Notes: generated by a model from the letters alone, not told the origin. DNA of 64,000 nt from a virus (IMGVR_UViG_3300025707_000003:32001-96000), one strand, 5' to 3'. Shown: positions 12,149 through 64,000, counted from the first letter of the stretch. Program-made: numbers and translations.

Positions 12149-13123
12149 ATGATAAAGCTACTATGGAGAACAGATGTCCACATGGGAGATAAAACCCCAC
12201 GCAGACGCACTGGAAACTGGACGGATGATGTGGTCAACAAGCTCAAGTGGATTGGTGATCTCGCTAAGGATAAAGAGATTGACGCTGTACTTGATGGTGG
12301 AGACTTCTTTGATGTCAAATCACCCACCAAGAATAGCCATAGTTTAGTCCGTAAGGCTTGTGACGCACATGAGGGGTATCCTTGCCCTACTTATGGTCTA
12401 GTCGGCAACCACGATGTAAAATATGGCAATATAGACTACCTACCCGAACAACCTCTAGGAGTCCTATTCTCATCGGGTGTCTTTAAGCAGTTTGGCGATG
12501 ATGTAGAAATAAACTTTGAAAAAGATGGGGTCAAAGTTCGTGTAGTCGGTGTGCCTTATCATGGTGTCATTTATGACTTTGATCGGATCAAGAACATAAA
12601 AAAGAAAGACGAGGATTACCTACTAGTCGCTAGCCACCTCCTCGCTCGACAAGGTAAGACTGGATCAATGTTTGAGAATGAGGATATAGTTGGATATGAC
12701 TTCCTTAATGAGAACACAGAAGTAGACGCTTGGTTCTTTGGTCATTGGCACAAAGATCAAGGCATCTCCACGCTCTTAAATGGAGCAAGGGTTGTCAATG
12801 TAGGGTCATTAACAAGAGGTTCTTTACACCTTGATGACTTAGACCGTAGACCTTGTGTGGTAGAGGTTCAAGCCACCAAAGAGTCGCTTAACTTCATCAG
12901 ACACGATGTTCCTGTACGAGATGCCAATGAGGTATTCAAGATCGAGGAAACTGTGCGTGAAAAGGAAGATAAGCAACGAATGATCGACATTGTAGACAAG
13001 ATGAAAGCAGTAGCCACATCGGGTTGGTCTGAACTTACTCTTAAAGAGCGTGTAATGCAGACTATGGGTTCAAATGGAGCTAAGGAAATGGCTATCTCTT
13101 ATCTTGAACAAGTCGAGGATTAA
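12149..13123 (+). CDS. SbcD/Mre11-like metallophosphoesterase nuclease
   Basis: Calcineurin-like motifs DVH, GDFFD, GNHD, GHWH and VNVGSL. Confidence 0.8.
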   Translation: MIKLLWRTDVHMGDKTPRRRTGNWTDDVVNKLKWIGDLAKDKEIDAVLDGGDFFDVKSPTKNSHSLVRKACDAHEGYPCPTYGLVGNHDVKYGNIDYLPEQPLGVLFSSGVFKQFGDDVEINFEKDGVKVRVVGVPYHGVIYDFDRIKNIKKKDEDYLLVASHLLARQGKTGSMFENEDIVGYDFLNENTEVDAWFFGHWHKDQGISTLLNGARVVNVGSLTRGSLHLDDLDRRPCVVEVQATKESLNFIRHDVPVRDANEVFKIEETVREKEDKQRMIDIVDKMKAVATSGWSELTLKERVMQTMGSNGAKEMAISYLEQVED

Positions 13124-13124
13124 G
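13088..13124. repeat. 37 bp direct repeat copy 1 (3' end of SbcD-like gene)
   Basis: atggctatctcttatcttgaacaagtcgaggattaag; copy 2 at 13614-13650 has 2 mismatches. Confidence 0.95.
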
Positions 13125-13125
13125 A

Positions 13126-13512
13126 TTAAAGACTTTTAAGATAATCTAAAATGTCTTCATCTCTTCTTAATCCGTTTGGTTGGCCTTGGTCATGGTAGAT
13201 AATCTCGATTAAGTCGGTTGCGATAAGCACCTGGTCTTTTCTCGGTCTTTCCATAGACATACCAACTACATAACTATGATCAATGTCATCACTAGTTGAG
13301 AAGTGGTTAAAGATTTCGCCTTTTGACATGAAATAAGTTTTCATTCTGCGACCTCCACCATCTTGACCGTACTTATCTTTAAATGGTGCGAAGAGGGTAA
13401 ATTGCCCTTGCCCAAGAGCTTCCCTAGCTGGGTGCTTTCGGCCTGCTTGTCTTTCAAGTCTTGCAATCCTTGACTCAAGATTACGAATAACTTCGGTTGC
13501 TGATCTTCTCAT
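13126..13512 (-). CDS. Leader-family protein (MRRSATEVIRNLESRIARLERQA), 128 aa
   Basis: Start reassigned to ATG 13512; conserved UTR and class A motif at 13560-13572. Confidence 0.8.
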   Translation of the reverse strand: MRRSATEVIRNLESRIARLERQAGRKHPAREALGQGQFTLFAPFKDKYGQDGGGRRMKTYFMSKGEIFNHFSTSDDIDHSYVVGMSMERPRKDQVLIATDLIEIIYHDQGQPNGLRRDEDILDYLKSL

Positions 13513-13613
13513 GGTTTTCTCCATTTTGTTTGTGGTTAAAGAGATCACTTATGAGAACCTATAAAAGAACTATTAAAACAAGAAATAGATAAAAGTAGGA
13601 ATAAGGGGTGGGG

Positions 13614-13650
13614 ATGGCTATCTCTTATCTTGAACGAGTCGAGGACTAAG
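13614..13650. repeat. 37 bp direct repeat copy 2 (duplicate of SbcD-like gene end)
   Basis: atggctatctcttatcttgaacgagtcgaggactaag lying between two leader cassettes. Confidence 0.95.
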
Positions 13651-13653
13651 TTA

Positions 13654-14121
13654 TTAGGCTTTTGTGATGTCATAGTCTGCACGAGCCTTTAGATTGCTCT
13701 TTAGGATGCTCTGTAGTTTATTAGCACAAGAGTTATAACTTTGGCTCTCACATCCAGTAGCAACAAATACTTGATAGAGACAACTCCAACAACCACCTTG
13801 AAGATTGTCTGATCCGTCATCAAGACCCCAACTGATTTGTAGTTGACCCCCCCCTATATCAACATATGCGTATAGGCTTGTTCCTCTCTCAATGTCTCCT
13901 TCCTCGATTCCTTCTTCAAGACTGGATTTAGCAGACTCAATATCACTGTTAACTTCTGCAATAATCTCTGCAAAAGTCATGTCGGTGTTTCGATCTCTTG
14001 GGTGACCTGTGTACCAACCTGTACTGATCTTTAGACCAGAATGTTTGTTGGCAGTACGACCTTCAAGACGAGCAATCCTCATCTGAAGGTTGCGAATAAT
14101 TTCTGATGCTGATCTTTTCAT
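13654..14121 (-). CDS. Leader-family protein (MKRSASEIIRNLQMRIARLEGRTA), 155 aa
   Basis: Start reassigned to ATG 14121; conserved UTR; class A motif 14169-14181 directly after the RecD2 stop. Confidence 0.8.
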   Translation of the reverse strand: MKRSASEIIRNLQMRIARLEGRTANKHSGLKISTGWYTGHPRDRNTDMTFAEIIAEVNSDIESAKSSLEEGIEEGDIERGTSLYAYVDIGGGQLQISWGLDDGSDNLQGGCWSCLYQVFVATGCESQSYNSCANKLQSILKSNLKARADYDITKA

Positions 14122-41478: not shown

Positions 41479-42198
41479 ATGAGTGGATTTTCAGATTTCA
41501 GTCTCGGTTCTCAGTCCCCAATCCTTTCAGGTGGCAAAGTACGATGGAAGCCTCAAAAGGGTAAATTTCGTGTCACTTTTGCCGCTCTTCCAGGTCTTGA
41601 GGAAGAGGATGTTAAGTTTGAGGATAGCAACGGAGATCCTACTAACCCTTCTTTTAAAGGTGGTCGTAGACTTTACGCAAAAGATGTTGGGTACTTCTTG
41701 GATCATGGGCCAGAGTATCAAAAAATCGCAGGCAACCCTTCAAAGACTTCGATTGCTACTACTTTAATCTTTTGGCCTACAGATGCTAACGGTTCATTAG
41801 ATAAGGCTCGTTTCTCCAATGGTGAGTTTGAGATCAAAACTTGGATCTTCTCACTCGACAAGTATCGTCAACTTGAGTCAATCAACACTGAGTTCCCTTT
41901 GAGTCAACATGACATTTCAATCACTGTGACTGACCCTCAGTTCCATAAGATGACCTTTGCACCCTGTAAAGAGTCTTTGTTCAAGACCTTACATGATAAG
42001 GGATCTGATATGTTCAAGACTTGTATGGAGGCTGTAAAGCCTATCCACGCAAACATCCAGAATGATATCGCTCAAGACCTCACCATTGATCAGATTCGTG
42101 AGAAGATGAGTGGCTCAGTCGGTTCTCCTACAGGCAAGAGTGGTGGTGGATTCAATTCTAGCTTTGACGCAGATGAGATTCTTGACGGTATGCTCTAA
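41479..42198 (+). CDS. Single-stranded DNA-binding protein (gp32-like), putative
   Basis: 239 aa; Gly-rich linker and acidic tail FDADEILDGML; aromatic-rich core. Confidence 0.6.
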   Translation: MSGFSDFSLGSQSPILSGGKVRWKPQKGKFRVTFAALPGLEEEDVKFEDSNGDPTNPSFKGGRRLYAKDVGYFLDHGPEYQKIAGNPSKTSIATTLIFWPTDANGSLDKARFSNGEFEIKTWIFSLDKYRQLESINTEFPLSQHDISITVTDPQFHKMTFAPCKESLFKTLHDKGSDMFKTCMEAVKPIHANIQNDIAQDLTIDQIREKMSGSVGSPTGKSGGGFNSSFDADEILDGML

Positions 42199-42200
42199 AG
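42165..42200. repeat. 36 bp direct repeat copy 1 (3' end of SSB gene)
   Basis: tgacgcagatgagattcttgacggtatgctctaaag; identical copy at 43187-43222. Confidence 0.95.
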
Positions 42201-42382: not shown

Positions 42383-43147
42383 ATGAGAGCAGTACACATC
42401 TACGATTTTGACGGGACTTTATTTAGAACTCCACAAAGACCAAACTGGTATGACAATAACTTGGATGGGGTTTGGCATCAAAACCCATTGAGTTTTGCAG
42501 AACCTTGTCTACCTAAAGGTGAGCGTTGGGTTAAGTCTATTGTTTCAGAAGCTAAGAGAAGCATCGCCTCAAAGGATGTTTACACCATCGTCCTTACAGG
42601 GCGTAAGACACCTTTTCAAAGAGTAGTTGAGGATCTTTTAAGATCAAAAGGATTAAAGTTTGATGAGGTCATCTTGAAAGACAGAGGAGATACTGAGTCT
42701 TTTAAAAACAGAGTAATAGATCGCCTTATGGCACTGTTTCCTGATGCAGAGATCCACATCTGGGAAGATAGACATAATCATTTAAAAGTATTCATGGATC
42801 ACATCGAGATGAGAGGTGGCGTTGGAATCCCTCACGCAGTACCGCAAAACTACTCGGTGGCTGAATGTTCTGAAGAGGAGTTTAGGGATATGAGAAGATC
42901 AGCATCAGAAACTATTAGAAATCTTGAGCATCGCATTGCTCGACTTGAGGGGTCTAGGACAGCTTCAAGCGATGTTCGTAGAGCTGGCAAGAAAGTTATT
43001 GAAGCAATAGACAAGCTACAGGAAGAGCTTGAGAAGATGCCTTCCTTCAACAGTGATGAGTCTTACTATGAGGATTTAAGAGAGCGTTTTGAGGCACTTC
43101 ACCTTAGCGTCCATAAAGAGGTTCAGTTCATCACAGGTGCTTACTAA
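42383..43147 (+). CDS. HAD (Swiss Army Knife-like) phosphatase fused to an internal leader (ATG 42890) and a small helical domain
   Basis: IYDFDGTLFRTP, LTGR, IWEDR; internal MRRSASETIRNLEHRIARLEGSRTAS; conserved cassette UTR at 42348-42385. Confidence 0.8.
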   Translation: MRAVHIYDFDGTLFRTPQRPNWYDNNLDGVWHQNPLSFAEPCLPKGERWVKSIVSEAKRSIASKDVYTIVLTGRKTPFQRVVEDLLRSKGLKFDEVILKDRGDTESFKNRVIDRLMALFPDAEIHIWEDRHNHLKVFMDHIEMRGGVGIPHAVPQNYSVAECSEEEFRDMRRSASETIRNLEHRIARLEGSRTASSDVRRAGKKVIEAIDKLQEELEKMPSFNSDESYYEDLRERFEALHLSVHKEVQFITGAY

Positions 43148-43186: not shown

Positions 43187-43222
43187 TGACGCAGATGAGA
43201 TTCTTGACGGTATGCTCTAAAG
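43187..43222. repeat. 36 bp direct repeat copy 2 (duplicate SSB gene end)
   Basis: Perfect match to 42165-42200. Confidence 0.95.
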
Positions 43223-44612: not shown

Positions 44613-46040
44613 TCAACCCTCTACTATACCACTCTCAAAAATGTGTTCTAGCATATCTACAATTGTTTCTATGCTCTCTAGTGTTCTCCCCGATGCAGTG
44701 AGCCTACGCATACTTGCTGTTCGAGTCGCCTCTCGAACAAACATCAGAGGGTCGAAGTGGAGCTTGGTCTTACCTGTGGTAATACTTTCTTTGAGCGTGT
44801 TTTGCATGGACGCAGTACTTAAGAATCTTAGCAAAACTTCTGGGTTGATATAAGATTTCTTAGTTGTACTGCCACTATCATGGCTTAATGCCACCTGTGC
44901 TCTTTCATGTGCTTTATTGATTGTGTCTGATACAATTTCAACAACCCGTTGGGTCAAGTCTTCAGTTTCTAGTTCTGCGACTTCTTTAATCTTTTCAAGC
45001 ATCGAGTCTCTTTCTTCTTGGAGTCCATCAAACACCTCTTGGGTCGCTCTTAACTTCCTAAAGTCAGTGATCTTAAAACCTTTGAAATTCTCTTTAAAGT
45101 ATTTCGCAAGATGTCTATAAGTGAACTTCTCTCCCTCACTAGTAACGAAGATATACTCAGAGCCAGATTCTAAGGCGTTGTCTACATAGTCCTTTAAAAC
45201 TTTGATGATAGATGAGTTGGATATGGAAGCTGTATTTACCGTTCCCATTTTCCCTCTGAAGACCAACTCGACAAAATTGTTTCGGACAAAGTTGACATGG
45301 GTGGCGTTCAAAGTGATTGCACCGAATGTTTCAACCTGCACTTCTTGTTCCTCCACAGTTTCTACAATCCCATTCCCTATTTGTCCTGGTCTTATTCCTG
45401 TTTCCATGATGATTGAAGTAATGATTGCAGATAACTTGGTTAGTTCATCTTTTGACTTGAGGTCTTTTTTAATCTTTTTTACGATGGTGTTGTACTTTTT
45501 GATGAGCTTCTTTTGAGACTTGATCTTCTCGGCTAAAGTATAAGTCTTGTTGCCGAACATATCGTTAATCGTCTTGATGTATCCCTCATCATCTACATCA
45601 ATCGTGATTGTGTCGGGCAGGTACGCCCTTAACTCCACAGGAATGGCAGATTTAAGAGGGGTTTGTTTTTTGTGGAGTTCTATCGCCTTAAAAGACCTAA
45701 CACTGTTTTTTTTGAATGTCTCGCTTACCTCTTTAAGAGGCTTTTGCCCAGCTAGGTAGTCTCGTATGAGGTACATCGTTGCATTTCTCCACGAATATGC
45801 TTTATCGCTTACCTCATCTGACCCCACAAACTTATTCATGAACCCTAAGACTTGAGACAAGTTTTTAATCGACTTAACTATATGTCTTTTCCTCTTACCT
45901 ATAACTGCTTTTCCCCTACCTTTGTGTTCAGATTTAGCTTGCACCCCATAGCTTTTAAGGTCTTTCAACAGGACTTTAAAGGCAGTAAGGGATTTGCGTT
46001 GAAACGCAGAGATTTTTTTTTCCTCTTGTGGTGTCGGCAT
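44613..46040 (-). CDS. Type IB DNA topoisomerase-like protein
   Basis: Catalytic residues in the expected order: TGIRPG (R), FRGKMG (K), DFRKLRAT (R), LSHDSGSTTKKSYINP (H...Y); start after AAAGGAG. Confidence 0.75.
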   Translation of the reverse strand: MPTPQEEKKISAFQRKSLTAFKVLLKDLKSYGVQAKSEHKGRGKAVIGKRKRHIVKSIKNLSQVLGFMNKFVGSDEVSDKAYSWRNATMYLIRDYLAGQKPLKEVSETFKKNSVRSFKAIELHKKQTPLKSAIPVELRAYLPDTITIDVDDEGYIKTINDMFGNKTYTLAEKIKSQKKLIKKYNTIVKKIKKDLKSKDELTKLSAIITSIIMETGIRPGQIGNGIVETVEEQEVQVETFGAITLNATHVNFVRNNFVELVFRGKMGTVNTASISNSSIIKVLKDYVDNALESGSEYIFVTSEGEKFTYRHLAKYFKENFKGFKITDFRKLRATQEVFDGLQEERDSMLEKIKEVAELETEDLTQRVVEIVSDTINKAHERAQVALSHDSGSTTKKSYINPEVLLRFLSTASMQNTLKESITTGKTKLHFDPLMFVREATRTASMRRLTASGRTLESIETIVDMLEHIFESGIVEG

Positions 46041-46072
46041 TTTAATTCTCCTTTTCTTTAGTGGTATCATAA

Positions 46073-56073: not shown

Positions 56074-56952
56074 ATGAGTAATACAGTTGATAATGCCGTA
56101 AAACAGAAGATCATTTCTGACTACATTAAGACTCCTCAAGGTCGTGCGAAGCTCGCCGCTTCAATGACTCAACCTTTACGCCTTCGTAGAGATTACACCT
56201 CTGTTGGTCGCAAGACTTTCTTAGTCGAGCAACTTCCAGACGGTGCTTTACCTATCTACGACAAAGACCCAGATGTTACTGCATTTGTGGTTGGTGAAGA
56301 GGGTGAAAACATTCTTGCAATCACCAAACCTCGTAGGGTTATCTTCCCTCTTTTCGAGATTGCTTCAAATCCTGAGATTCCTTTGACTCAAATCAAAGAG
56401 CGTAGATTTGACCTTATCGAGAGGGCACAAGATTTAGCTCGTGCTCAAATCCAAGCGGCTGAAGACGAGCGTGTATTCGCTATTCTTGACGCAGTTGCGG
56501 CAAACGGATTTGATTCAGTTGCAGGTCAAACTAACGCTGACCTTCCTGTTATCGCTCCTCTTAATGGTGCTGTTCTTGCTGACGCATTTAGCCTCATTGA
56601 GCGTCACGACCTTCGTGTTGCCCGTATCTTCATGAATGCTCGTGATTATGCTGACATCCGTAAGTTCGGTAGAGATATCCTCGACATCGAGAGCCAAGCG
56701 GCACTTCTCAAGACTGGTCTTCAGGCTACTCTTTGGGGTGCTCAGATCATCACTAGCCGTCTTGTTCCTGTTGGAACTGTTTATGTCTGCTGTGAGCCAG
56801 AAATGTTCGGTCGTATCCCTGTTCGTACAGAATTGACCGTTCTCTCTGCTGACGATCCAAAAGCTCGTACAATTGGTTTTTCAGTGTTCGAGAATTTGGG
56901 TATTGGTGCCTACAACCCTCGTGGTCTTGCTCGTCTTACAGTACAGCGTTAA
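56074..56952 (+). CDS. Major capsid protein (HK97-like fold)
   Basis: 292 aa; follows protease-scaffold-decoration; HK97-type pattern (E-loop VVGEEG, AEDERVF, GLQATLWGAQII); followed by a strong terminator. Confidence 0.8.
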   Translation: MSNTVDNAVKQKIISDYIKTPQGRAKLAASMTQPLRLRRDYTSVGRKTFLVEQLPDGALPIYDKDPDVTAFVVGEEGENILAITKPRRVIFPLFEIASNPEIPLTQIKERRFDLIERAQDLARAQIQAAEDERVFAILDAVAANGFDSVAGQTNADLPVIAPLNGAVLADAFSLIERHDLRVARIFMNARDYADIRKFGRDILDIESQAALLKTGLQATLWGAQIITSRLVPVGTVYVCCEPEMFGRIPVRTELTVLSADDPKARTIGFSVFENLGIGAYNPRGLARLTVQR

Positions 56953-57011
56953 TATCTAGTATATTCGCTTTACTTTCGCCTACTTAGGTAGGTGTAAGAG
57001 GTCATAGAAAG

Positions 57012-57043
57012 AACCTCATCTTCTTCGGAAGGTGGGGTTTTTT
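57012..57043 (+). terminator. Rho-independent terminator
   Basis: aacctcatcttc-TTCG-gaaggtggggtt followed by a T-run. Confidence 0.8.
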
Positions 57044-57135
57044 CGTATCTAGGGTTCTTTTCTTTGGCTTAACTCACTCTCCTATGGTACAAGTCTTACA
57101 CTCTTAAACACTAAGAACCACATAAGGAGTGTAAG

Positions 57136-57621
57136 ATGAACAACAATTTTGTTCCAGTTCCCACAGTAATGGAAGCCATGACAGGTTTCCTCTGTAGTAA
57201 GGCTTTTCTTATCTATCTAATTATATTTGGTGTTCTATTTTTTATATGGCTTTTTATCAAAAAAGAGAGGAGAGAAGAAGCTGATCTCTATCGAGCATTA
57301 GTGAGAGAAGTGAGAGAAAACCAAAATCTTAAGCGAAGACTAGGACAGACACCAAATGAAGAGCAAGATGATATGTACTCCAACGAGGTACTCACCTCGT
57401 CATATGATTTATGCGAATCATATACCAAAGATATCAAATGGAGAAACGCAGGTCTCAGACATGATATAAAAATACTAAACATCGAGGATAAAGAGACACT
57501 ATTGAAAGCGAAGGCTCTACTTTTGTACTTAACTACCTCGGAGAAACAAACCCCACAATTTATTGAGGGTGTTCAGAAAACGCTCAAGGTTATTACGATC
57601 CTAGAAAAGAGTGTAAGATGA
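57136..57621 (+). CDS. Hypothetical membrane protein
   Basis: 161 aa with one TM helix (FLIYLIIFGVLFFIWLFI); AAGGAG RBS. Confidence 0.65.
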   Translation: MNNNFVPVPTVMEAMTGFLCSKAFLIYLIIFGVLFFIWLFIKKERREEADLYRALVREVRENQNLKRRLGQTPNEEQDDMYSNEVLTSSYDLCESYTKDIKWRNAGLRHDIKILNIEDKETLLKAKALLLYLTTSEKQTPQFIEGVQKTLKVITILEKSVR

Positions 57622-58529
57622 GAGCGATACCATGCCCTATATCTAAAGAGCGTTTTGAAGACCTCTATACTAAACAATACTTAACAGAGAAGCAGATTAA
57701 CGAGTTGTTGATTTCTGAGGGTATTGACTCAAGCATGAAGCGTATTGGTAGTTGGAGACTACGCTATGGGATTGAAACGGTATCTAAGTTTGATCGTCTT
57801 GAGCTACCAAAGATTGAGGGGGAGTTAAGATCAATCCTTATTGGTTCTATGCTAGGTGACGGTCGTATTGTTTTTCGTACTAACGCTTCACACTATGAGG
57901 AACGACACGCACCCAATCAGAAAGAGTATCTTGAGTGGAAGCAAGAGAAGTGGGGCGTGTGGTCATCTGGAGATTTAGCAGTAGCGATGAGTAGGGAGTT
58001 CCCTAGTTATATCTTTCGCACCCACGCTCACCCTATGCTAAATGAGTATCGAGACTTGTTCTATGAGGAGAGGGATAAGGGGTGGAAAGTTGTTAAGTCT
58101 GATGTTATAGACCAAGTAGATGAGTTAGCTTTGGCTATGTGGTATCTCGATGATGGTCATGCAGGACATTGGCCTATGATTTGTTTTGGGGCAAAACAGG
58201 GGAGTCGAGCTAACGCTTACTTAATCTTTGAGAAGTTTGGTTTAGCCCCTAACTGGACACATAAAAAAGGGGAGACAGGAGAGTTCCACTTTAAGGGTGA
58301 GAACGCTTATCGTTTCATTGAGATCATTAAGCCTCATGTACCCGATTGTATGTCTTACAAGTTGGACTTTGGTTTTCAAGGTCGTAACAATGCTATCAAG
58401 AAAAAGATGGACAAAGGCATCTTAGAGGACTTAAGGAGTAAGGGGTGGGGTAAGCGTAGGATAGCTAGGTATCTTGATGTAGGGGCGAGTACAGTGGGTC
58501 GTTGGATGGTTAAGTTTGGAGTGGAGTGA
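57618..58529 (+). CDS. Free-standing LAGLIDADG homing endonuclease with HTH extensions
   Basis: LIGSMLGDGRI and LAMWYLDDG motifs; terminal HTH-like segments. Confidence 0.8.
   Translation: MRAIPCPISKERFEDLYTKQYLTEKQINELLISEGIDSSMKRIGSWRLRYGIETVSKFDRLELPKIEGELRSILIGSMLGDGRIVFRTNASHYEERHAPNQKEYLEWKQEKWGVWSSGDLAVAMSREFPSYIFRTHAHPMLNEYRDLFYEERDKGWKVVKSDVIDQVDELALAMWYLDDGHAGHWPMICFGAKQGSRANAYLIFEKFGLAPNWTHKKGETGEFHFKGENAYRFIEIIKPHVPDCMSYKLDFGFQGRNNAIKKKMDKGILEDLRSKGWGKRRIARYLDVGASTVGRWMVKFGVE
58474..58529. repeat. 56 bp direct repeat copy 1 (3' end of LAGLIDADG gene)
   Basis: Copies at 58942-58997 (3 mismatches), 59583-59616 (34 bp, perfect) and 61341-61358 (16/18). Confidence 0.95.
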
Positions 58530-58600
58530 GGACTTTGATAGTTTATTTATAATAGATCTTAAGTGATCTCTTTAACCAAGAATCCAAATGGAGAAACATT

Positions 58601-58915
58601 ATGCGTAGATCAGCATCAGAAATCATCAATAACCTTGAGAATAGGGTTGCACGACTTGAATCAAGTTCTAACCCTCGTCAAGCTAAAGATGCTTATGATA
58701 TTTGGAGAAGGAAAGTAGATCAGTACATCATTAAGGAAATGCGGGTCACTTTTGAATACGAAACAAAAGACGGTGAACACTCCGAAGACTATATAAACAG
58801 TCTTTGGCAAGATGGAGTTAAGCCATCACGAGCCTCCAAAAATATCATGCAGAAATTTCAATGGTTAAAGTCAGCGGGTATGCTAAAGCATCATAAATAT
58901 TATGATGCTATTTGA
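58601..58915 (+). CDS. Leader-family protein (MRRSASEIINNLENRVARLE), 104 aa
   Basis: Class A motif at 58539-58551 and conserved UTR. Confidence 0.8.
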   Translation: MRRSASEIINNLENRVARLESSSNPRQAKDAYDIWRRKVDQYIIKEMRVTFEYETKDGEHSEDYINSLWQDGVKPSRASKNIMQKFQWLKSAGMLKHHKYYDAI

Positions 58916-58941
58916 ATGGTTATTGAAAGGGATCTAGGGAT

Positions 58942-58997
58942 TTGATGTAGGGGCGAGTACAGTGAGTCGTTGGATGGTTAAGTTTGGGGTGGATTGA
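58942..58997. repeat. Direct repeat copy 2 of the LAGLIDADG gene end
   Basis: ttgatgtaggggcgagtacagtgagtcgttggatggttaagtttggggtggattga. Confidence 0.95.
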
Positions 58998-59044
58998 TTT
59001 GTAGTTTATTTATTAGTGTCTATTATCCATAAAGGAGAGACACC

Positions 59045-59575
59045 ATGAGACTTACTATCGCTTTACTCTTATCTGTCTTGCTCACCTCTACGATTTCTCA
59101 CGCTGAAGAGAATAACTGGGAAGTGAGTCTAGGCACAACGCAAATGTTCATCGGTGGGTACGAAGAGGGTTCAATACCTGTACCTACGAACTCTGCCACA
59201 TTCATCTTATCTCGTAAGATGTATGAGAGCTTTGCATTATGGGTTGTGTTCAATCTACCTACCTCCTCTAACAAAAGGTTTACAGAGGAAGGTTTACTTG
59301 TAGAGTCTCAGACACCACCTAGTCTTATGCTAGGTGCGAGTTATGAGTTATTGGGCTATGAGATCTCCGACAAGAAATCTTTAGGTCTTGATGTTGGTGC
59401 TTCAGTCGGACACACGATTACGCTTAATGGTCAGTTCTTCCCTGTGGGTGCGTTTCGTTTGAAGTTCGTTAAAGACGAGGACAGCACTATGTATGCAGGG
59501 GTGACAACCTCACCATATAATCCAGATGGTGATTTGGTTTGGGGTTTGATCTATGGCATGGGGTATAGATTTTAA
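59045..59575 (+). CDS. Secreted protein, possibly an outer-membrane beta-barrel
   Basis: Sec signal peptide (…TISHA), alternating beta-strand pattern, C-terminal YGMGYRF with terminal Phe; class A motif at 59002-59014. Confidence 0.6.
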   Translation: MRLTIALLLSVLLTSTISHAEENNWEVSLGTTQMFIGGYEEGSIPVPTNSATFILSRKMYESFALWVVFNLPTSSNKRFTEEGLLVESQTPPSLMLGASYELLGYEISDKKSLGLDVGASVGHTITLNGQFFPVGAFRLKFVKDEDSTMYAGVTTSPYNPDGDLVWGLIYGMGYRF

Positions 59576-59582
59576 TGTGAGT

Positions 59583-59616
59583 GCGAGTACAGTGGGTCGT
59601 TGGATGGTTAAGTTTG
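59583..59616. repeat. Direct repeat copy 3 of the LAGLIDADG gene end
   Basis: gcgagtacagtgggtcgttggatggttaagtttg. Confidence 0.95.
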
Positions 59617-59684
59617 AGGTTTTGTAGTTTCTTTATAATAGATCTTAAGTGATCTCTTTAACCTTAATCAAATGGAGAACCATT

Positions 59685-60164
59685 ATGAGAAGATCTGCAT
59701 CAGAAATCATTAATAACCTTGAGACTCGTATCGCAAGACTTGAAAGACAAGCATATCACCCTGATGACCCACGATCACAAGAGATGGGTGGTTATAGAGA
59801 GCCTGCGGGGGGAGAGTGGCATGAGCCTGAGATTCTTACTGGAAAAAAGTTTCTCAGGTGGTTACAAAATGATCGGGAGATCAAATCCCATTTAAATAAG
59901 AGCGTGTTTATAGATGTTTCTTCATCTACTATCACCTTTGACACATCTTGGTGGTCAAAATATACAAGAAATGGTAATACCTTGGATGGGATTCTATACA
60001 GCATTTGGGACAATCCTATGTTGGGGCGGGATTGGAAGATAAGAGGGAGAAATGTGACTATCAAGGGTTTGTGGGGAGACCTTGTGTACGGGGAGGGTGA
60101 TATTTATGCACAAGAAACCTTTACCATCAAGAAGAGTCGTGGTTCTATCGTTTTAAAGGCATAG
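59685..60164 (+). CDS. Leader-family protein (MRRSASEIINNLETRIARLERQA), 159 aa
   Basis: Start reassigned to ATG 59685; class A motif at 59625-59637 and UTR. Confidence 0.8.
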   Translation: MRRSASEIINNLETRIARLERQAYHPDDPRSQEMGGYREPAGGEWHEPEILTGKKFLRWLQNDREIKSHLNKSVFIDVSSSTITFDTSWWSKYTRNGNTLDGILYSIWDNPMLGRDWKIRGRNVTIKGLWGDLVYGEGDIYAQETFTIKKSRGSIVLKA

Positions 60165-60349
60165 TCTATCTGTGGCCTTAATTAAGTTATCATCTCTGAT
60201 GATGTTTTAAACAAAGATGAGAGACAAAAGGTTTACACTTAGCCACAAGTGGGGAGTTTTTGTTCCTAGTGGAAGATAGATTTGAATAAGTTTAATAGTT
60301 TGTTTATATACCTTTTCTTGAACACACTTAACAAAGAAGGATATTCATT

Positions 60350-60715
60350 ATGAGAAACTTACTCACAATCGCACTTATTGCTCTTACCTTTATTGCTTGC
60401 GACAAGGATAAAGAAGAAACCACACCTAACGATGGTGGTATGGAAGCTGGGGCTACCGCAGGATCAGAGGCAGGATCTGAAGCAGGAACTGAAGCAGGGT
60501 CTGATGCAGGAACTGAAGCAGGGACAGAAATGGACATGATGGTTATGGGTGGTTCTGAAGAGACTACAGACATGGAAATTACTGAAGGTGGTACTGAGTC
60601 TGATATGGGTATGGACGAAGCGGGTATGGAATCTACGGACATGGAAGTAGTTGAGGGTGGTTCAGATGAATCTACGGATATGGGATCTGATACCGAAGCT
60701 GGAACTGAGGGCTAG
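60350..60715 (+). CDS. Low-complexity acidic lipoprotein
   Basis: Signal peptide with lipobox FIAC; GSEAGTEAG and DM repeats; class A motif at 60296-60308. Confidence 0.7.
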   Translation: MRNLLTIALIALTFIACDKDKEETTPNDGGMEAGATAGSEAGSEAGTEAGSDAGTEAGTEMDMMVMGGSEETTDMEITEGGTESDMGMDEAGMESTDMEVVEGGSDESTDMGSDTEAGTEG

Positions 60716-60856
60716 TAGTCTTGCTCGTCTAAATGGTCTTTAAGATCTTAGAATGAACCTCATTTCCCTTTGGGATTTGGGGTTTTTCCGTTTATAGTTT
60801 GTTTATAAGTGATCTTAAGTGATCTCATTAACCTTAAACAAAATGGAGAAACCATT

Positions 60857-61291
60857 ATGAGAAGATCAGCATCAGAAATTATTAGAGGACTTGAGAATAG
60901 GGTTGCACGACTTGAAAGACAATCCTCAACCAACCGTAGGGCTAGAAAGTACGGGAAAGCGATCACAGACGCTGTTCGGATGCTTAAGAAAGAGGTGGGC
61001 GATGCAGATGCGTCTGAGATTGAAGTGGTGGTGGTAGAGCTAGTCCATTATAAATTTGAGGATCTGCTTAGAGAGATCGAGGACAGAGGTCCTAATGCTG
61101 AAGAGTACTATGAAAATGAAGTTGTAAATAAGTACCCAGCACTGGTCAAAGCAGGTATTCTATCCGCTGAAATATGGATACAACATCCCAAAATAATCCG
61201 AGACCGATACAGGTTGAAAAACTTAAAGGAAGTTAATCTCTTCGCTGAGTGCATTGGGTCAAGAAAATTGGCTGAGGGGCTCAGTTTCTGA
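60857..61291 (+). CDS. Leader-family protein (MRRSASEIIRGLENRVARLERQS), 144 aa
   Basis: Start reassigned to ATG 60857; class A motif at 60795-60807 and UTR. Confidence 0.8.
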   Translation: MRRSASEIIRGLENRVARLERQSSTNRRARKYGKAITDAVRMLKKEVGDADASEIEVVVVELVHYKFEDLLREIEDRGPNAEEYYENEVVNKYPALVKAGILSAEIWIQHPKIIRDRYRLKNLKEVNLFAECIGSRKLAEGLSF

Positions 61292-61358
61292 TCCCTATTT
61301 AATCTTACAAGATGGGGTCTAAGTTAAGGGATAAGATGCTGTTTGGGGTAGAGTGAGG

Positions 61359-62480
61359 TTAATGGTCGATCCCTTGTTCACATAAAGGACAAGTATCTCC
61401 AATCTCGCACCTAATAGTATCAAGCTCCTCTGTGAGCCTTTCTACCTCTTGTTCGGTGCAAGATATACGACTGAATAGATCAAAGCGTTCAGAAGCGATT
61501 CTGAGGTCTTTTTCGACTTGCGAATCTACATTAGGTAAGTCTACATTAAGTTGTGTGATTTGTAAGATGGTTTGATCTAATTGATTTCTTTTGTGCAAGA
61601 CCCGCTCAAGTGGTGCAGGGTCTTTCACCTCTACATCTGGGATAGGTGGGAATGAGGTTAAGCCAACCTCTACGATACCTTCCATGATCCTTAGTCTGTT
61701 CTTTTCTATACGAACACGCTCAAGGTCTTTAATCCCCATAAAGTCATGTGGGTTCACTTGTGGGAATTTTACATTTTGCAAGGTGGATACGAACTGTGTT
61801 TGAAACATAAAGATTTCTCTCTTTTCTTTGATTGCCCCTAGCTTTTTAACTCTTTCTTCAAGAGTCTTAATCGACCCCTCAAGTGTACTTATATGATTGA
61901 TCGTTTCCCCTACTTCGTCCAACTCGTTAAACTTAGGTAAACGATCCCGCTCAGATACTAAATCTTCATGCTTTACTTTAATGCGTTGATTAAGGTTCTT
62001 AGTTTCGTTCCTAGAGAGACTTGACGCTTTCTCTAGGGCTTCTATTGTCTTTACATCAGATAAAGCACTAGAGAGGACACTAGGTGGCATATCAAGCAAG
62101 AAGATTTGTTCAAACTGTCGAGCGATCTGAGGCCATACAGTTTTTCCATCGACATCTACCGAAACAATGTTCAAGTCATCAAGTTCATCGGGAGTTTTTG
62201 ACCCTACTTTATCTAACTTTTGTCCGTTGATCTCATATTTATTAACCCCTTTACCCTTTTCCCAAATTACCGAGTTGCCATCATCAAAGTTGATGGAGAC
62301 TTTTGATGACTTTTCACCTTGCCTTACATGAGAATATCCCCTTGCATTAGAGAAAGCACCTGCTATGGCTCTTGCACAAGCAGACTTACCTGTATTATTA
62401 GCCCCTGTAATAACAGTAAGACCTTTAACTTCAAAGTCAGCGTGTTTGATAGATTGGTAGTTTTCTATTTTGACTTGCAT
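61359..62480 (-). CDS. SbcC/Rad50-like ATPase, N-terminal half (Walker A to zinc hook)
   Basis: KIENYQSI, GANNTGKS, QIARQ Q-loop, coiled coil, terminal CPLC; no signature or Walker B motif. Confidence 0.75.
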   Translation of the reverse strand: MQVKIENYQSIKHADFEVKGLTVITGANNTGKSACARAIAGAFSNARGYSHVRQGEKSSKVSINFDDGNSVIWEKGKGVNKYEINGQKLDKVGSKTPDELDDLNIVSVDVDGKTVWPQIARQFEQIFLLDMPPSVLSSALSDVKTIEALEKASSLSRNETKNLNQRIKVKHEDLVSERDRLPKFNELDEVGETINHISTLEGSIKTLEERVKKLGAIKEKREIFMFQTQFVSTLQNVKFPQVNPHDFMGIKDLERVRIEKNRLRIMEGIVEVGLTSFPPIPDVEVKDPAPLERVLHKRNQLDQTILQITQLNVDLPNVDSQVEKDLRIASERFDLFSRISCTEQEVERLTEELDTIRCEIGDTCPLCEQGIDH

Positions 62481-62532
62481 GGTGTCTTGTCTCCCATTCC
62501 CTTTATATGAATGATACCGAGTTTAGGTTTTT

Positions 62533-62549
62533 GTAACCCCTTAAATATA
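62533..62549 (+). promoter_or_regulatory. Class B motif, putative early promoter
   Basis: gtaaccccttaaatata upstream of 62582. Confidence 0.5.
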
Positions 62550-62581
62550 CCCTTATGTAACTCTTGAAAGGAGACTAAGAC

Positions 62582-62806
62582 ATGACAGATCAAAAGGCAC
62601 AACAACTAAGGGATGCATACAATAAGTTCGTTGACCACCCCGATGGTCATTGGAAAGGTTCTGCCATTGCAGTGGTCAACCAAGCTCAGAGATCAATCGT
62701 TCGGGAAGCGATGGACTTTATGGGTTCAATCGTTGACCAAGAGTTAGAACTGAGTGATGGTAATATTGCTCTTTACAGTAAAGGATATTGGGCACATGGA
62801 TTTTGA
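62582..62806 (+). CDS. Hypothetical protein
   Basis: 74 aa; AAGGAG RBS. Confidence 0.65.
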   Translation: MTDQKAQQLRDAYNKFVDHPDGHWKGSAIAVVNQAQRSIVREAMDFMGSIVDQELELSDGNIALYSKGYWAHGF

Positions 62807-63026
62807 GGTATATAAACTAACCGATGCTGAACTTGGGGCAGTAGACTTTTGTAGAGGTCGCTACCTATGGGCTGACATCGTAGCTCAAAACTTAGAGGGT
62901 GATACGCTTACCCTAGATAACATGACTCAACATGAGATGAATGAGGCTATTGAGGTAGAGGGCATTCCTCTCTTAGATGATCGCACTGATCTTTTTCGAG
63001 GACTTATCTCTCTTGAGCCTGTGTGA
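62796..63026 (+). CDS. Hypothetical protein
   Basis: Start reassigned to ATG 62796, overlapping the upstream stop. Confidence 0.6.
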   Translation: MDFEVYKLTDAELGAVDFCRGRYLWADIVAQNLEGDTLTLDNMTQHEMNEAIEVEGIPLLDDRTDLFRGLISLEPV

Positions 63027-63094
63027 ACTTTAATAGTTTATTTATAGATTCTCATAGGAGTCTCTTTAACCTTAACTTGAATGGAGAAACCATC

Positions 63095-63469
63095 ATGAGA
63101 AGATCAGCTAGTGAAATCATCCGTAACCTTGAGGGTCGTATTGCTCGTCTTGAAAAATCGGCTCGTCCGAATGACATAGGTATACATAAAGTAGTCAACA
63201 AATTGGCATATATACATCAATTTTCTTCGGGGTCCATGGTTCTATCTGTGCCTAGTAGAAATGCTGACGAAGTGGTAAGGGCAATCAAGGAGATTGGTGT
63301 GGGAGCAGAGAATCCATTTGAGGAAAACGATATCACTTATAAGAAAGATAATAAAGGACACATGGTTACATTCACTGTTTCATCACCCGAATGGTTAAGA
63401 ACACATGATGTGGTTCTAAGCCTAAAACTAGATGGTTTTTTCCTAGTGTCTCACGATGACTTTAGATGA
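63095..63469 (+). CDS. Leader-family protein (MRRSASEIIRNLEGRIARLEKSA), 124 aa
   Basis: Start reassigned to ATG 63095; class A motif at 63034-63046. Confidence 0.8.
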   Translation: MRRSASEIIRNLEGRIARLEKSARPNDIGIHKVVNKLAYIHQFSSGSMVLSVPSRNADEVVRAIKEIGVGAENPFEENDITYKKDNKGHMVTFTVSSPEWLRTHDVVLSLKLDGFFLVSHDDFR

Positions 63470-63594
63470 GGGGATGTCTGAAACTCCAATTCAGAACCAG
63501 GAATCTCTTGTTGGTAGAGGTTATCTGATCTAAGAGTCTTAAACCTCCTCTAAATAGTATAAGGGTACATATACCCTATATGAGAGGAGAGAAG

Positions 63595-64000
63595 ATGTCA
63601 TTAGACACGAAGTATAGACCTAGAACATACAGCGATGTGCTAGGTCAAAAGGCTACCATCCAAACGCTCAAAGGCTTTATTAAGTCAGATGCAGGTTGGA
63701 GGCAGTCTTACCTATTCGCTGGCCCTTATGGTTCGGGCAAAACTACACTGGGTCGGATCATGGCTCGTGCTTTATTATGTGAGTCGCCTGTTGAGGGTGT
63801 GCCTTGTGATGAATGTCATTCATGTAAAGCTATGCTTGTTGGTAGCCATGACTCATTTATCGAAGTGGATGCGGCTACCAACAGTGGGAAAGCAGATGTA
63901 AAGAAGCTACTCGAAGAGCTAGGTTATTCTTCCTTTTCGGGTAATAAGAAGCTCTACCTCTTTGACGAAAGTCACCAGCTAAGTCGGGATGCACTGGATG
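63595..64000 (+). CDS. dnaX: DNA polymerase III gamma/tau clamp-loader subunit (partial, runs off the window; not in ORF track)
   Basis: Manual translation MSLDTKYRPRTYSDVLGQ...GPYGSGKTT...CDECHSC...IEVDAATNSG...FDESHQLS. Confidence 0.9.
   Translation, partial: MSLDTKYRPRTYSDVLGQKATIQTLKGFIKSDAGWRQSYLFAGPYGSGKTTLGRIMARALLCESPVEGVPCDECHSCKAMLVGSHDSFIEVDAATNSGKADVKKLLEELGYSSFSGNKKLYLFDESHQLSRDALD

What the first reader, a model, noticed from the sequence alone, without database searches (positions are those of the whole stretch)
58474..61358. Accordion-like array of five late cassettes built on repeated copies of the homing endonuclease gene end
Seen: the 3' end of the LAGLIDADG gene recurs at 58474-58529, 58942-58997 (3 mismatches; G to S, synonymous, E to D; stop kept), 59583-59616 (34 bp perfect) and 61341-61358 (16/18; ttt ggg gta gag tga, i.e. 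FGVE-stop with synonymous changes). The first three copies are each followed within a few bp by a class A motif and a new gene. The block holds three leader proteins, a secreted beta-barrel-like protein and a lipoprotein. The last copy abuts the convergent SbcC-like gene, suggesting the endonuclease and SbcC genes were once adjacent. Inference: repeated rounds of cassette accretion at one hotspot, an integrase-free analogue of an integron array. Whether the adjacent nuclease or the phage recombination proteins drive it is speculative.
Basis: partly seen in the sequence, partly recalled or inferred. Interest (0 to 1): 0.8.

Follow-up and report, generated by a model that had tools for sequence, protein, structure and literature searches.

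The report
Phage cassette array with endonuclease-end scars
In an uncultured marine giant phage, a stretch of small self-promoted genes next to a homing endonuclease gene is gained, lost and reordered between close relatives, and the repeated copies of the endonuclease gene's end are scars of out-of-register recombination that then act as extra recombination sites, not a dedicated integron-like site.

Summary
Three of the four claimed copies of the LAGLIDADG gene's 3' end are real: 58474-58529, 58942-58997 and 59583-59616. Each lies 4-9 nt before a promoter motif. The fourth (61341-61358, 16/18) is at noise level and absent from all relatives.

The array is real and plastic. Phages with 96-99.7% identical capsid protein show at least 11 architectures between the capsid gene and the SbcC-like gene, and about nine different genes directly behind the endonuclease. 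Endonuclease-free and endonuclease-deleted alleles exist.

The endonuclease-end copies are not the general cassette boundary. Clear copies occur only in the window's lineage. The complete 375-kb relative has one. Each remnant has one fixed left junction and travels with the gene on its left. Both junctions, and an in-situ deletion of the endonuclease, break within about 5 nt of one promoter-start-like site about 57 nt before the stop.

Two other cassettes in this window are bracketed by duplicated ends of unrelated genes, one with a 5-nt microhomology junction.

Best reading: allele stacking by out-of-register recombination, then homologous deletion and permutation at the repeats. No integrase or folded site was found, and nothing shows the endonuclease cuts here. 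It is a variant of PeSL and T-even internal-protein locus shuffling. The scan had already noted the leader family on this genome.

The parts
56074..56952 (+). Major capsid protein gene, the conserved left anchor of the variable locus
   Evidence: Weak Pfam Phage_capsid hit. It is 96-99.7% identical in all relatives.
57018..57056 (+). Capsid-gene terminator ending in ATCTAGGG. The endonuclease element is inserted right after it.
   Evidence: Comparison of endonuclease-free (L007, L008) and endonuclease-carrying alleles. Part or all of the terminator is duplicated behind the endonuclease in L013, L014 and L039.
57136..57621 (+). 161-aa membrane protein gene overlapping the endonuclease start (ATGA). 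Most relatives carry an unrelated ~105-aa gene here instead.
57618..58529 (+). Free-standing LAGLIDADG homing endonuclease gene
   Evidence: Pfam LAGLIDADG_2 1e-19; PHROG 11023. Present or absent among relatives.
58474..58529 (+). Copy A: the true 3' end of the endonuclease gene
58535..58660 (+). Promoter, 5' UTR and leader module of LdrA, one of 4 copies within 57000-64000
   Evidence: Repeat family D1 at 58535, 59619, 60791 and 63029. The module occurs 20 or more times in related genomes.
58601..58915 (+). LdrA, a leader-tagged 104-aa cargo gene
   Evidence: Found in three other contexts, always followed by remnant B.
58916..58941 (+). Left junction of remnant B. It contains ATCTAGGGATTT, which is identical to a terminator-end/promoter-start junction in L013.
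58942..58997 (+). Copy B: an endonuclease-end remnant carrying the SNPs of the L011-type endonuclease allele
59045..59575 (+). Secreted 8-stranded outer-membrane beta-barrel-like protein gene
   Evidence: AF2 model and Foldseek matches to Ail, OmpX and OmpA. Present in 7 relatives at different positions.
59572..59620 (+). Copy C: an endonuclease-end remnant (34 nt perfect from 59583). It has lost about 10 nt at its right end compared with L011, L025 and L040.
59685..60164 (+). LdrB, a leader-tagged 159-aa cargo gene
   Evidence: In L011 a truncated leader-only ORF replaces it.
60350..60715 (+). Acidic repeat lipoprotein gene with its own promoter motif at 60296-60308
   Evidence: Strains differ by 12-nt repeat indels.
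60755..60807 (+). Terminator-like paralogue of the capsid-gene terminator, plus the promoter motif of LdrC
   Evidence: Family D13.
60857..61291 (+). LdrC, a leader-tagged 144-aa cargo gene
61341..61358 (+). Claimed fourth copy; not distinguishable from chance
   Evidence: 16/18 match. The score is at control noise level, and it is unique to this genome.
61359..62480 (-). SbcC/Rad50-like ATPase head gene. Its stop codon is the fixed right border of the variable array.
   Evidence: Pfam AAA_23, AAA_15 and AAA_21; PHROG exonuclease/SbcC-like. In all relatives the flank differs right up to the stop.

Best explanation
The region between the capsid gene and the SbcC-like gene is a hyperplastic locus of a group of marine jumbo phages. 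Each unit is a self-contained cassette: a promoter motif, a conserved 5' UTR, often the shared 20-aa leader, and then a variable cargo gene. Co-circulating relatives carry different cassettes directly behind the same anchor gene, the homing endonuclease. Out-of-register recombination between two such alleles joins the end of one allele's first cassette to a point inside the endonuclease 3' end of the other allele. The partners could be co-infecting genomes or concatemer copies. The join uses a short microhomology between a promoter start (TTTGAT/TTTAAT, followed by AGTTT) and a look-alike site (TCTTGAT, followed by GT) about 57 nt before the endonuclease stop. The product keeps both alleles' cassettes, separated by a 50-56 nt duplicate of the endonuclease end, and the downstream promoter stays intact. 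A variant route is a full second endonuclease copy that is later deleted at the same site, as seen in L039. Once made, the endonuclease-end copies (34-56 nt, 95-100% identical) and the promoter/UTR/leader modules are direct repeats. The phage's general homologous recombination acts on them and yields deletions, permutations or duplications, cargo swaps and SNP shuffling. Shown here: the anatomy, the single origin of each left junction, the allele diversity, the hybrid and deletion alleles, and the same signature at two unrelated genes. Inferred: which partners recombined (inter- or intramolecular), which enzymes act, and that the leader is a capsid-addressing tag.
For: Repeats are real and non-random. 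At least 11 architectures occur among phages with 96-99.7% identical capsid protein. The gene directly behind the endonuclease is LdrA, the barrel gene, four other leader genes, a 215-aa gene, a 165-aa gene, the lipoprotein gene or LdrC. Endonuclease-free alleles: L007, L008, and in run X11 a contig end that puts the capsid terminator directly before the barrel-gene promoter at 59002. Copy B is the L011-type endonuclease end plus the barrel-gene promoter, SNP for SNP. B's left junction is identical in the window, L025 and L027. C's left junction is identical in the window, L011, L025 and L040. L027 carries B's left junction fused to a C-type right side and promoter, with the barrel gene deleted. 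Run X18 has a contig joining 58473 to 58942 with 23 ambiguous letters and no LdrA. L025 and run X14 show the permuted joint from the LdrC promoter/leader into the LdrA body. SNP haplotypes in the copies show all four gametes. In L019 the barrel-gene stop overlaps a promoter start (TTTTAATAGTTTAT), and junction C sits exactly there. In L039 the endonuclease element is deleted between two ATCTTGA repeats, leaving its last ~63 nt. Non-endonuclease analogues lie in this window: 42165-42200 with 43187-43222 (36 nt perfect), and 13088-13142 with 13614-13668 (55 nt, 84%). Both are single-copy in two relatives, and comparison with the 375-kb genome shows a TGACG microhomology at the first. PeSL shuffling and T-even internal-protein loci are documented precedents for recombination at repeated regulatory cassettes with under 50 bp of homology (PMC2839356).
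Against: No recombination event was observed directly; everything is inferred from static alleles, many of them short metagenomic contigs of mixed strains. The permuted joint (L025, X14) could in principle be a graph-assembly path through the 27-nt identical leader stretch. Three breakpoints within about 5 nt of one endonuclease site could also point to a site-specific break rather than microhomology alone. Remnant B and the L039 deletion may be one event rather than two. Most relatives build similar arrays without endonuclease-end scars, so the scars explain only part of the plasticity.
Confidence: 0.68

Rival explanations
1. The homing endonuclease is the driver. It cuts at or near terminator/promoter junctions, or at the site 57 nt before its own stop, in co-infecting relatives. 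Break repair that copies from a donor and switches template produces the partial endonuclease duplicates and imports neighbouring cassettes.
For: The endonuclease sits exactly at the border between the conserved capsid gene and the hypervariable array. It is present or absent among relatives, and its insertion site is a terminator-end/promoter-start junction of the kind that recurs at cassette borders. Three rearrangements break within about 5 nt of one site in its gene. Phage nuclease genes are reported at boundaries of genetic exchange (PMC10055350).
Against: The same duplication signature occurs at two loci far from any endonuclease gene. Endonuclease-free relatives (L007, L008) also differ from each other by one cassette. 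Most arrays carry no endonuclease-end copies. The ATCTAGGG border motif is not clearly enriched, with 5 found against 1.8 expected. No cleavage data exist.
Confidence: 0.15
2. The endonuclease element itself has inserted separately in front of several promoters. Each remnant is the relic of a once complete copy that decayed by deletion, following the invasion, fixation, decay and loss cycle of selfish endonuclease genes.
For: L039 shows exactly such an in-situ deletion, leaving 9 nt of the element's left end and its last ~63 nt. B's left flank contains the terminator-end motif ATCTAGGG, which also marks the element's insertion site.
Against: In all 14 endonuclease-carrying contigs the gene sits in one place, directly after the capsid terminator. 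No genome shows a full copy between LdrA and the barrel gene, or behind the barrel gene. Junction C lies right on the barrel-gene stop with no trace of the element's left end.
Confidence: 0.12
3. The repeated 50-56 nt is kept by selection as a functional element, such as an upstream promoter element, an operator for the endonuclease's DNA-binding helix, or an attC-like recombination site.
For: All copies sit at a fixed short distance before a promoter motif. The copies are 95-100% identical, while the sequence to their left shares nothing with the endonuclease gene.
Against: Most promoters of the same class (17 in the window, 20 or more modules in relatives) have no such sequence upstream. Copy C has lost ~10 nt in the window. 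Only a 21-nt match at noise level lies at the same position in L007/L008. No RNA structure stands out, with z-scores of +1.4, -2.2 and -0.4. The high identity fits recent origin.
Confidence: 0.04
4. The repeats are an assembly artefact of a mixed metagenomic population.
For: The window is a metagenome-derived viral contig, and related strains co-occur in the same samples.
Against: Independent contigs from other samples and assemblers carry the same junctions (L011, L025, L027, L040). Contigs from the 2012 run X6 and from X1 (a run that may be the window's own source sample) bridge 58548-59612.
Confidence: 0.01

Closest known systems
PeSL (promoter-early stem-loop) cassettes and mini-circles in hyperplastic regions of T4-type phages (Arbiol et al. 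2010, PMC2839356; Comeau et al. 2014, PMC4122927)
   Same: Small, mostly orphan genes each carry their own regulatory cassette. Insertions, deletions and replacements between very close relatives lie at those repeated cassettes. No dedicated recombinase is known, and the authors themselves compare the system with integrons. A permuted joint here (L025, X14) is what a circle or a tandem duplication would give.
   Different: The repeated module here has a different promoter motif and extends through the 5' UTR into a shared N-terminal leader. Some boundaries also carry duplicated 3' ends of the neighbouring anchor gene, which that paper's abstract and discussion (the parts read here) do not mention for PeSLs. 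Circles were not tested here.
Internal-protein (IP) loci of T-even phages: more than 30 variant cargo proteins sharing a capsid targeting sequence, in two hypervariable loci (Repoila et al. 1994, as cited in PMC2839356 and PMC3012670)
   Same: Unrelated cargo proteins sit behind one conserved short N-terminal peptide. Conserved regulatory sequences lie in front of them, the locus is highly polymorphic between close relatives, and it lies near head genes.
   Different: The leader sequence is unrelated, and packaging or cleavage is untested. About 8-11 leader genes are spread over this 83-kb fragment rather than confined to two loci. The array also holds a secreted barrel protein and a lipoprotein without the leader.
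Orphan-module arrays downstream of rhs / cdiA genes. This comparison rests on recalled general knowledge and on an earlier scan note (e1-978607) that compared a restriction-gene cassette array with them.
   Same: Incoming alleles recombine in a conserved anchor gene. Modules accumulate downstream, each preceded by a short fragment of the anchor gene's 3' part.
   Different: The anchor here is a selfish endonuclease gene in a phage. The modules are not toxin-immunity pairs, and the fragments are non-coding scars in front of separate promoters, not fused coding ends.
Free-standing homing endonuclease genes at recombination boundaries in phages (Barth, Dunham and Seed 2023, PMC10055350)
   Same: A free-standing nuclease gene sits beside an essential structural gene, at the edge of a block that is exchanged between relatives.
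   Different: No endonuclease-flanked island is seen here, and no activity data exist. The plasticity also occurs without the endonuclease.

Membership tests
Integron | An IntI-type tyrosine recombinase next to the array | tested here: not met
   No integrase lies in or beside the array. Among 30 ORFs of the window scanned with Pfam, the only related hit is a topoisomerase IB-like protein at 44613-46070, with a sub-threshold Phage_integrase match (4.7e-4, 20 bits against a cut-off of 27).
Integron | Cassettes bounded by attC sites that fold as imperfect hairpins | tested here: not met
   The three repeat copies with flanks fold no better than shuffles, with z-scores of +1.38, -2.23 and -0.43 and no shared structure. 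Most cassette borders in relatives lack the repeat.
Integron | Promoterless cassettes expressed from one common promoter | tested here: not met
   Every cassette has its own promoter motif, at 58539, 59002, 59625, 60296 and 60795.
PeSL-type modular shuffling (works-like comparison) | Repeated regulatory cassettes flank non-essential ORFs in a hyperplastic region | tested here: met
   17 promoter motifs against 0.22 expected. The 126-nt promoter/UTR/leader family has 4 copies within 57000-64000 and 20 or more in relatives.
PeSL-type modular shuffling (works-like comparison) | Differences between close relatives map to those cassettes | tested here: met
   Gene maps of 11 architectures. Metagenome joints fall at the UTR or leader, for example 58577 to 60837 and 60840 to 58586, and at the endonuclease-end repeat, 58473 to 58942.
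PeSL-type modular shuffling (works-like comparison) | Sequence homology to the sigma-70-like promoter plus G/C stem-loop of RB49/phi1 PeSLs | tested here: not met
   The motif TAGTTTNTTTAT with its UTR is different, and sigma-70-like sites are depleted in the region: 4 found against 15 expected.
PeSL-type modular shuffling (works-like comparison) | Extrachromosomal mini-circles | not testable with these tools
   Only a permuted joint compatible with a circle or a tandem duplication was seen (L025; X14).
T4-type capsid-targeted internal proteins | A conserved short N-terminal peptide on otherwise unrelated proteins | tested here: met
   8 strict matches in the 83-kb genome fragment, with 3 more diverged ones. 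Cargo regions are unrelated.
T4-type capsid-targeted internal proteins | Packaging into the prohead and removal of the tag by the head protease | not testable with these tools
   No proteomic or structural data were available.
LAGLIDADG homing endonuclease | A LAGLIDADG catalytic domain | tested here: met
   Pfam LAGLIDADG_2, 1.1e-19 and 71.5 bits against a cut-off of 25; PHROG 11023.
LAGLIDADG homing endonuclease | Presence/absence polymorphism at one site, as expected of a mobile selfish gene | tested here: met
   L007 and L008 lack it. L039 has it deleted. In run X11 a contig end joins the capsid terminator directly to the barrel-gene promoter. Borders lie at the terminator end.
LAGLIDADG homing endonuclease | Site-specific cleavage of the empty allele | not testable with these tools
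   This needs an enzyme assay.
Gene accordion (tandem amplification of one gene, as in poxviruses or evolved T4) | Repeated copies of the same gene that expand and contract | tested here: not met
   The five cassettes encode different proteins. Only the short borders are repeated. A possible duplication is hinted at only by L025 and X14.

The most novel reading that the evidence does not exclude
The site about 57 nt before the endonuclease stop (ATCTTGATGTAG) is a programmed break or exchange point. A nuclease, either the LAGLIDADG enzyme itself or another phage enzyme, would cut there and at look-alike promoter starts. In that case this phage group would have a true integrase-free cassette-capture system, in which a selfish endonuclease gene serves as the docking site for new cargo genes.
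Probability: 0.1. Interest if true: 0.8.

Novelty: new variant of a known kind. Interest (0 to 1): 0.5.

Why it matters
This is a clean natural example of how giant phages add, drop and reorder accessory genes without any dedicated recombinase. The accessory genes include probable virion cargo and cell-envelope proteins. The short duplicated gene ends are readable scars that record individual stacking events. They then become new recombination sites, so a single illegitimate event makes a cassette portable by ordinary homologous recombination. The same signature at three loci of one genome suggests a general rule for this phage group. If the leader-tagged genes are injected anti-defence proteins, this locus is where their repertoire turns over. 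The rule gives a practical way to find cassette borders, and gene gain, in uncultured phage genomes.

Tried and rejected
- BLASTN of the region against 50,697 GenBank phage records gave no match.
- IMG/VR scans for relatives of LdrA and LdrB found none. LdrA relatives came only from the large protein collection. LdrC relatives only repeated the window's own arrangement, so the fourth copy could not be tested by context.
- Fourth copy: it is 16/18, with about 0.1 such matches expected in the window by a simple count. Its score is at the level of control hits. I rejected it as evidence for a former endonuclease-SbcC adjacency.
- A short look-alike of the endonuclease end sits behind the barrel gene in the endonuclease-free L007 and L008, at the same position as copy C. 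Its score of 27 is also at noise level, so I treat it only as a hint.
- RNA or DNA structure in the repeats: none.
- ATCTAGGG as a recurrent border signal: 5 found against 1.8 expected, not convincing.
- I looked for the missing C-terminal half of the SbcC/Rad50-like protein, in case the array split that gene. There was no SbcC_Walker_B match in the 83-kb record or in the complete 375-kb relative.
- A topoisomerase IB-like gene at 44613-46070 was considered as a possible illegitimate-recombination enzyme. Its usual CCCTT-type site is not a consistent feature of the junctions. This was checked by eye only and rests on recalled knowledge of poxvirus topoisomerase.
- The assembly-artefact reading was rejected (see rival explanations).

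Full report
**What is in the sequence**

The window is part of an 83-kb IMG/VR viral contig that CheckV rates 27% complete. Relatives reach 227 and 376 kb, so this is an uncultured marine jumbo phage.

From left to right the region reads as follows:
- the capsid gene (56074-56952) and its terminator;
- a 161-aa membrane protein gene;
- a free-standing LAGLIDADG endonuclease gene (57618-58529; Pfam 1e-19);
- five cassettes: LdrA (58601-58915), a secreted protein (59045-59575), LdrB (59685-60164), a lipoprotein (60350-60715) and LdrC (60857-61291);
- the convergent SbcC/Rad50-like ATPase gene (61359-62480).

The secreted protein models as an all-beta barrel (pLDDT 64). It matches Ail, OmpX and OmpA at TM about 0.5.

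**Check of the observation**

- The last 56 nt of the endonuclease gene recur at 58942-58997 (95%).
- The last part recurs at 59583-59616 (34/34, with weaker similarity from 59572).
- No such match occurs in shuffles.
- Each copy lies 4-9 nt before the promoter motif TAGTTTNTTTAT, which has 17 sites in the window against 0.22 expected.
- The fourth copy at 61341-61358 is 16/18. Its alignment score of 22-26 equals that of about six chance hits in 112 kb of control sequence.
- In seven relatives the sequence beside the ATPase stop is different each time and never resembles the endonuclease end.
- So three copies are real and the fourth is not established.

**Comparison with relatives**

IMG/VR, JGI and ENA contigs whose capsid protein is 96-99.7% identical show at least eleven architectures between the capsid gene and the ATPase or clamp-loader genes.

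| Locus | Order of genes after the capsid gene |
|---|---|
| L011 / L040 | endonuclease, barrel gene, remnant C with a truncated leader-only ORF, lipoprotein, another leader gene, ATPase |
| L012 | endonuclease, one leader gene, ATPase |
| L013 | endonuclease, leader gene, barrel gene, ATPase |
| L019 | endonuclease, 215-aa gene, barrel gene, leader gene, ATPase |
| L007 / L008 | no endonuclease at all; the two differ from each other by one leader cassette |
| L039 | endonuclease deleted in place, then three leader genes |

Logan contigs of eight marine metagenome runs add more alleles:
- endonuclease joined directly to the barrel gene (joint 58473 to 58942, run X18);
- endonuclease joined to LdrC through the shared UTR (58577 to 60837);
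- endonuclease joined to the lipoprotein cassette;
- in run X11, a contig end that puts the capsid terminator directly before the barrel-gene promoter, with no endonuclease.

The same runs also bridge the window's own order. About nine different genes can follow the endonuclease. The locus is a real hotspot.

**What the endonuclease-end copies are**

Clear copies exist only in the window's lineage: the window, L011/L040, L025 and L027. The complete 375-kb relative has a single copy.

- Copy B, with the promoter behind it, equals the true endonuclease end plus barrel-gene promoter of L011, SNP for SNP.
- Each remnant has one fixed left junction.
  - B is always joined to the same 26 nt behind LdrA. 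This holds in three contexts: behind the endonuclease in the window, behind the lipoprotein gene in L025, and behind an unrelated gene in L027.
  - C is always joined to the barrel-gene stop, in the window, L011, L025 and L040.
- Each junction therefore arose once and travels with the gene on its left.
- What lies to the right can change. In L027, B's left junction continues into a C-type right side and promoter, and the barrel gene is missing. That is the product expected from homologous recombination between B and C.
- The allele with the endonuclease joined directly to the barrel gene has its breakpoint inside the A/B repeat.
- The four variable sites in the copies occur in all four pairwise combinations.
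- The copies are therefore both scars and active recombination substrates.

**How the scars arise**

- In L019 the barrel-gene stop overlaps the start of the next promoter (TTTTAATAGTTTAT). Junction C lies exactly there, joined to the endonuclease sequence that follows TCTTGAT.
- B's left flank contains ATCTAGGGATTT, identical to a terminator-end/promoter-start junction in L013. It breaks at TTTGAT against the same endonuclease site.
- In L039 the whole endonuclease element is deleted between two ATCTTGA repeats. One of them is that same site, and the deletion leaves the last ~63 nt.
- So two or three independent events use one promoter-start-like site about 57 nt before the stop.

The same signature occurs at two unrelated genes in this window:
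- A 36-nt perfect duplicate of the end of gene 41479-42198 lies at 42165-42200 and 43187-43222. It brackets a 1-kb cassette.
- A 55-nt duplicate of the end of the Mre11-like phosphoesterase gene 12149-13123 lies at 13088-13142 and 13614-13668. It brackets a minus-strand leader cassette.

Two relatives have single copies of both. Comparison with the 375-kb genome places the first junction on a 5-nt microhomology, TGACG. The layout there is exactly that expected if two alternative alleles behind one anchor gene were joined out of register.

**Mechanism proposed**

Relatives carry different cassettes behind the same anchor gene. An out-of-register exchange at a short homology stacks both alleles. 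It duplicates the anchor's last 35-60 nt, which keeps the anchor gene and the downstream promoter intact. The duplicates and the promoter/UTR/leader modules then support ordinary homologous deletion, permutation and cargo exchange. The modules are about 126 nt long and include stretches of up to 27 identical nt. A two-step route, with a second full endonuclease copy later deleted as in L039, is not excluded for B.

Several things argue against a dedicated integron-like system:
- There is no integrase.
- The repeats do not fold better than shuffles.
- Every cassette has its own promoter.
- Most arrays lack the repeat.

Whether the endonuclease's cutting stimulates the exchanges could not be tested. 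The clustering of breakpoints at one site keeps that idea alive at low probability.

**Comparison with known systems**

- It works like PeSL-mediated modular shuffling in T4-type phages. In that system, repeated promoter-terminator cassettes flank orphan genes, mediate indels between close relatives and form mini-circles. The authors themselves compare it to integrons (PMC2839356).
- It also works like the T-even internal-protein loci, where more than 30 cargo variants share a capsid targeting sequence (PMC2839356, PMC3012670).
- The stacking of modules behind fragments of an anchor gene recalls rhs/cdi orphan arrays. That comparison rests on recalled knowledge.
- The position of a nuclease gene at an exchange boundary fits PMC10055350.
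- Three things differ from these:
  - the module's sequence;
  - its extension into a shared leader;
  - the readable gene-end scars with a recurrent junction site.
- It is not a member of the integron family, because all three defining features tested were not met.

**Earlier scan notes**

Earlier notes of this scan had already described the leader family on this genome. One of them read it as a probable capsid-addressing tag (e1-5368281). I confirmed only that the leader recurs. Another note on a tandem array with duplicated last codons elsewhere in this genome (e1-5368282) prompted my search for non-endonuclease gene-end duplicates in this window.

**Verdict**

Noticed in passing
window 42165-42200 and 43187-43222: A 36-nt perfect direct repeat duplicates the last codons and stop of gene 41479-42198. 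It brackets a ~1-kb cassette. Relatives have one copy. The right junction sits on a TGACG microhomology when compared with the 375-kb genome (locus L030).
   Followed up: yes
window 13088-13142 and 13614-13668: A 55-nt direct repeat (84%) duplicates the end of the Metallophos (Mre11/SbcD-like) gene 12149-13123. It brackets a minus-strand leader cassette (13126-13548). Two relatives carry a single copy.
   Followed up: partly
L039:60-200 (JGI Ga0181410_1008235): The endonuclease element is deleted in place between two ATCTTGA repeats. This leaves 9 nt of its left end and its last ~63 nt, followed by a duplicated half terminator and three leader genes.
   Followed up: yes
window 42383-43147: One ORF fuses a HAD_SAK_1 phosphatase-like domain (Pfam 1.3e-20) in frame to an internal copy of the leader at 42890 and a short cargo. 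This could be read-through of a leader cassette or a gene fusion.
   Followed up: no
window 61359-62480 (minus strand): The SbcC/Rad50-like protein has only the N-terminal ATPase head and a coiled region, and it ends a few residues after a CPLC motif that resembles a zinc hook. No SbcC_Walker_B half was found in this record or in the complete 375-kb relative. The gene is only 82% identical (protein) to that of L011, although its flanking genes are 100% identical, so it has been exchanged.
   Followed up: partly
window 44613-46070 (minus strand): A 485-aa protein has a eukaryotic/poxvirus-type topoisomerase IB catalytic core (Pfam 2.2e-13) and a sub-threshold tyrosine-recombinase match.
   Followed up: no
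L011:6300-6385: The leader gene behind remnant C is cut to 26 codons by a stop after a run of eight A. A 98-aa ORF follows in another frame. This is a tag-only or frameshifted cassette.
   Followed up: no
L007 and L008, about 60 nt before the ATPase stop (shown): A remnant of the 3' end of the lipoprotein gene lies beside the ATPase stop in genomes that have no lipoprotein gene. This is another gene-end relic.
   Followed up: no
window 60443-60526: The lipoprotein gene holds 12-nt tandem repeats (a GSEA/GTEA-type peptide repeat). Strains in metagenomes differ by 12-nt insertions at 60500 and 60511.
   Followed up: no
window 57136-57621 compared with L011:4390-4704: Two unrelated small membrane-protein genes (161 aa and ~105 aa) alternate directly upstream of the endonuclease. 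Both overlap its start by ATGA, and both are absent from endonuclease-free genomes, so the mobile unit seems to be a two-gene element.
   Followed up: partly
L026:345-668: A relative of LdrA is 97% identical over its first 57% and then continues with an unrelated C-terminal part. Exchange therefore also occurs inside cargo genes.
   Followed up: no
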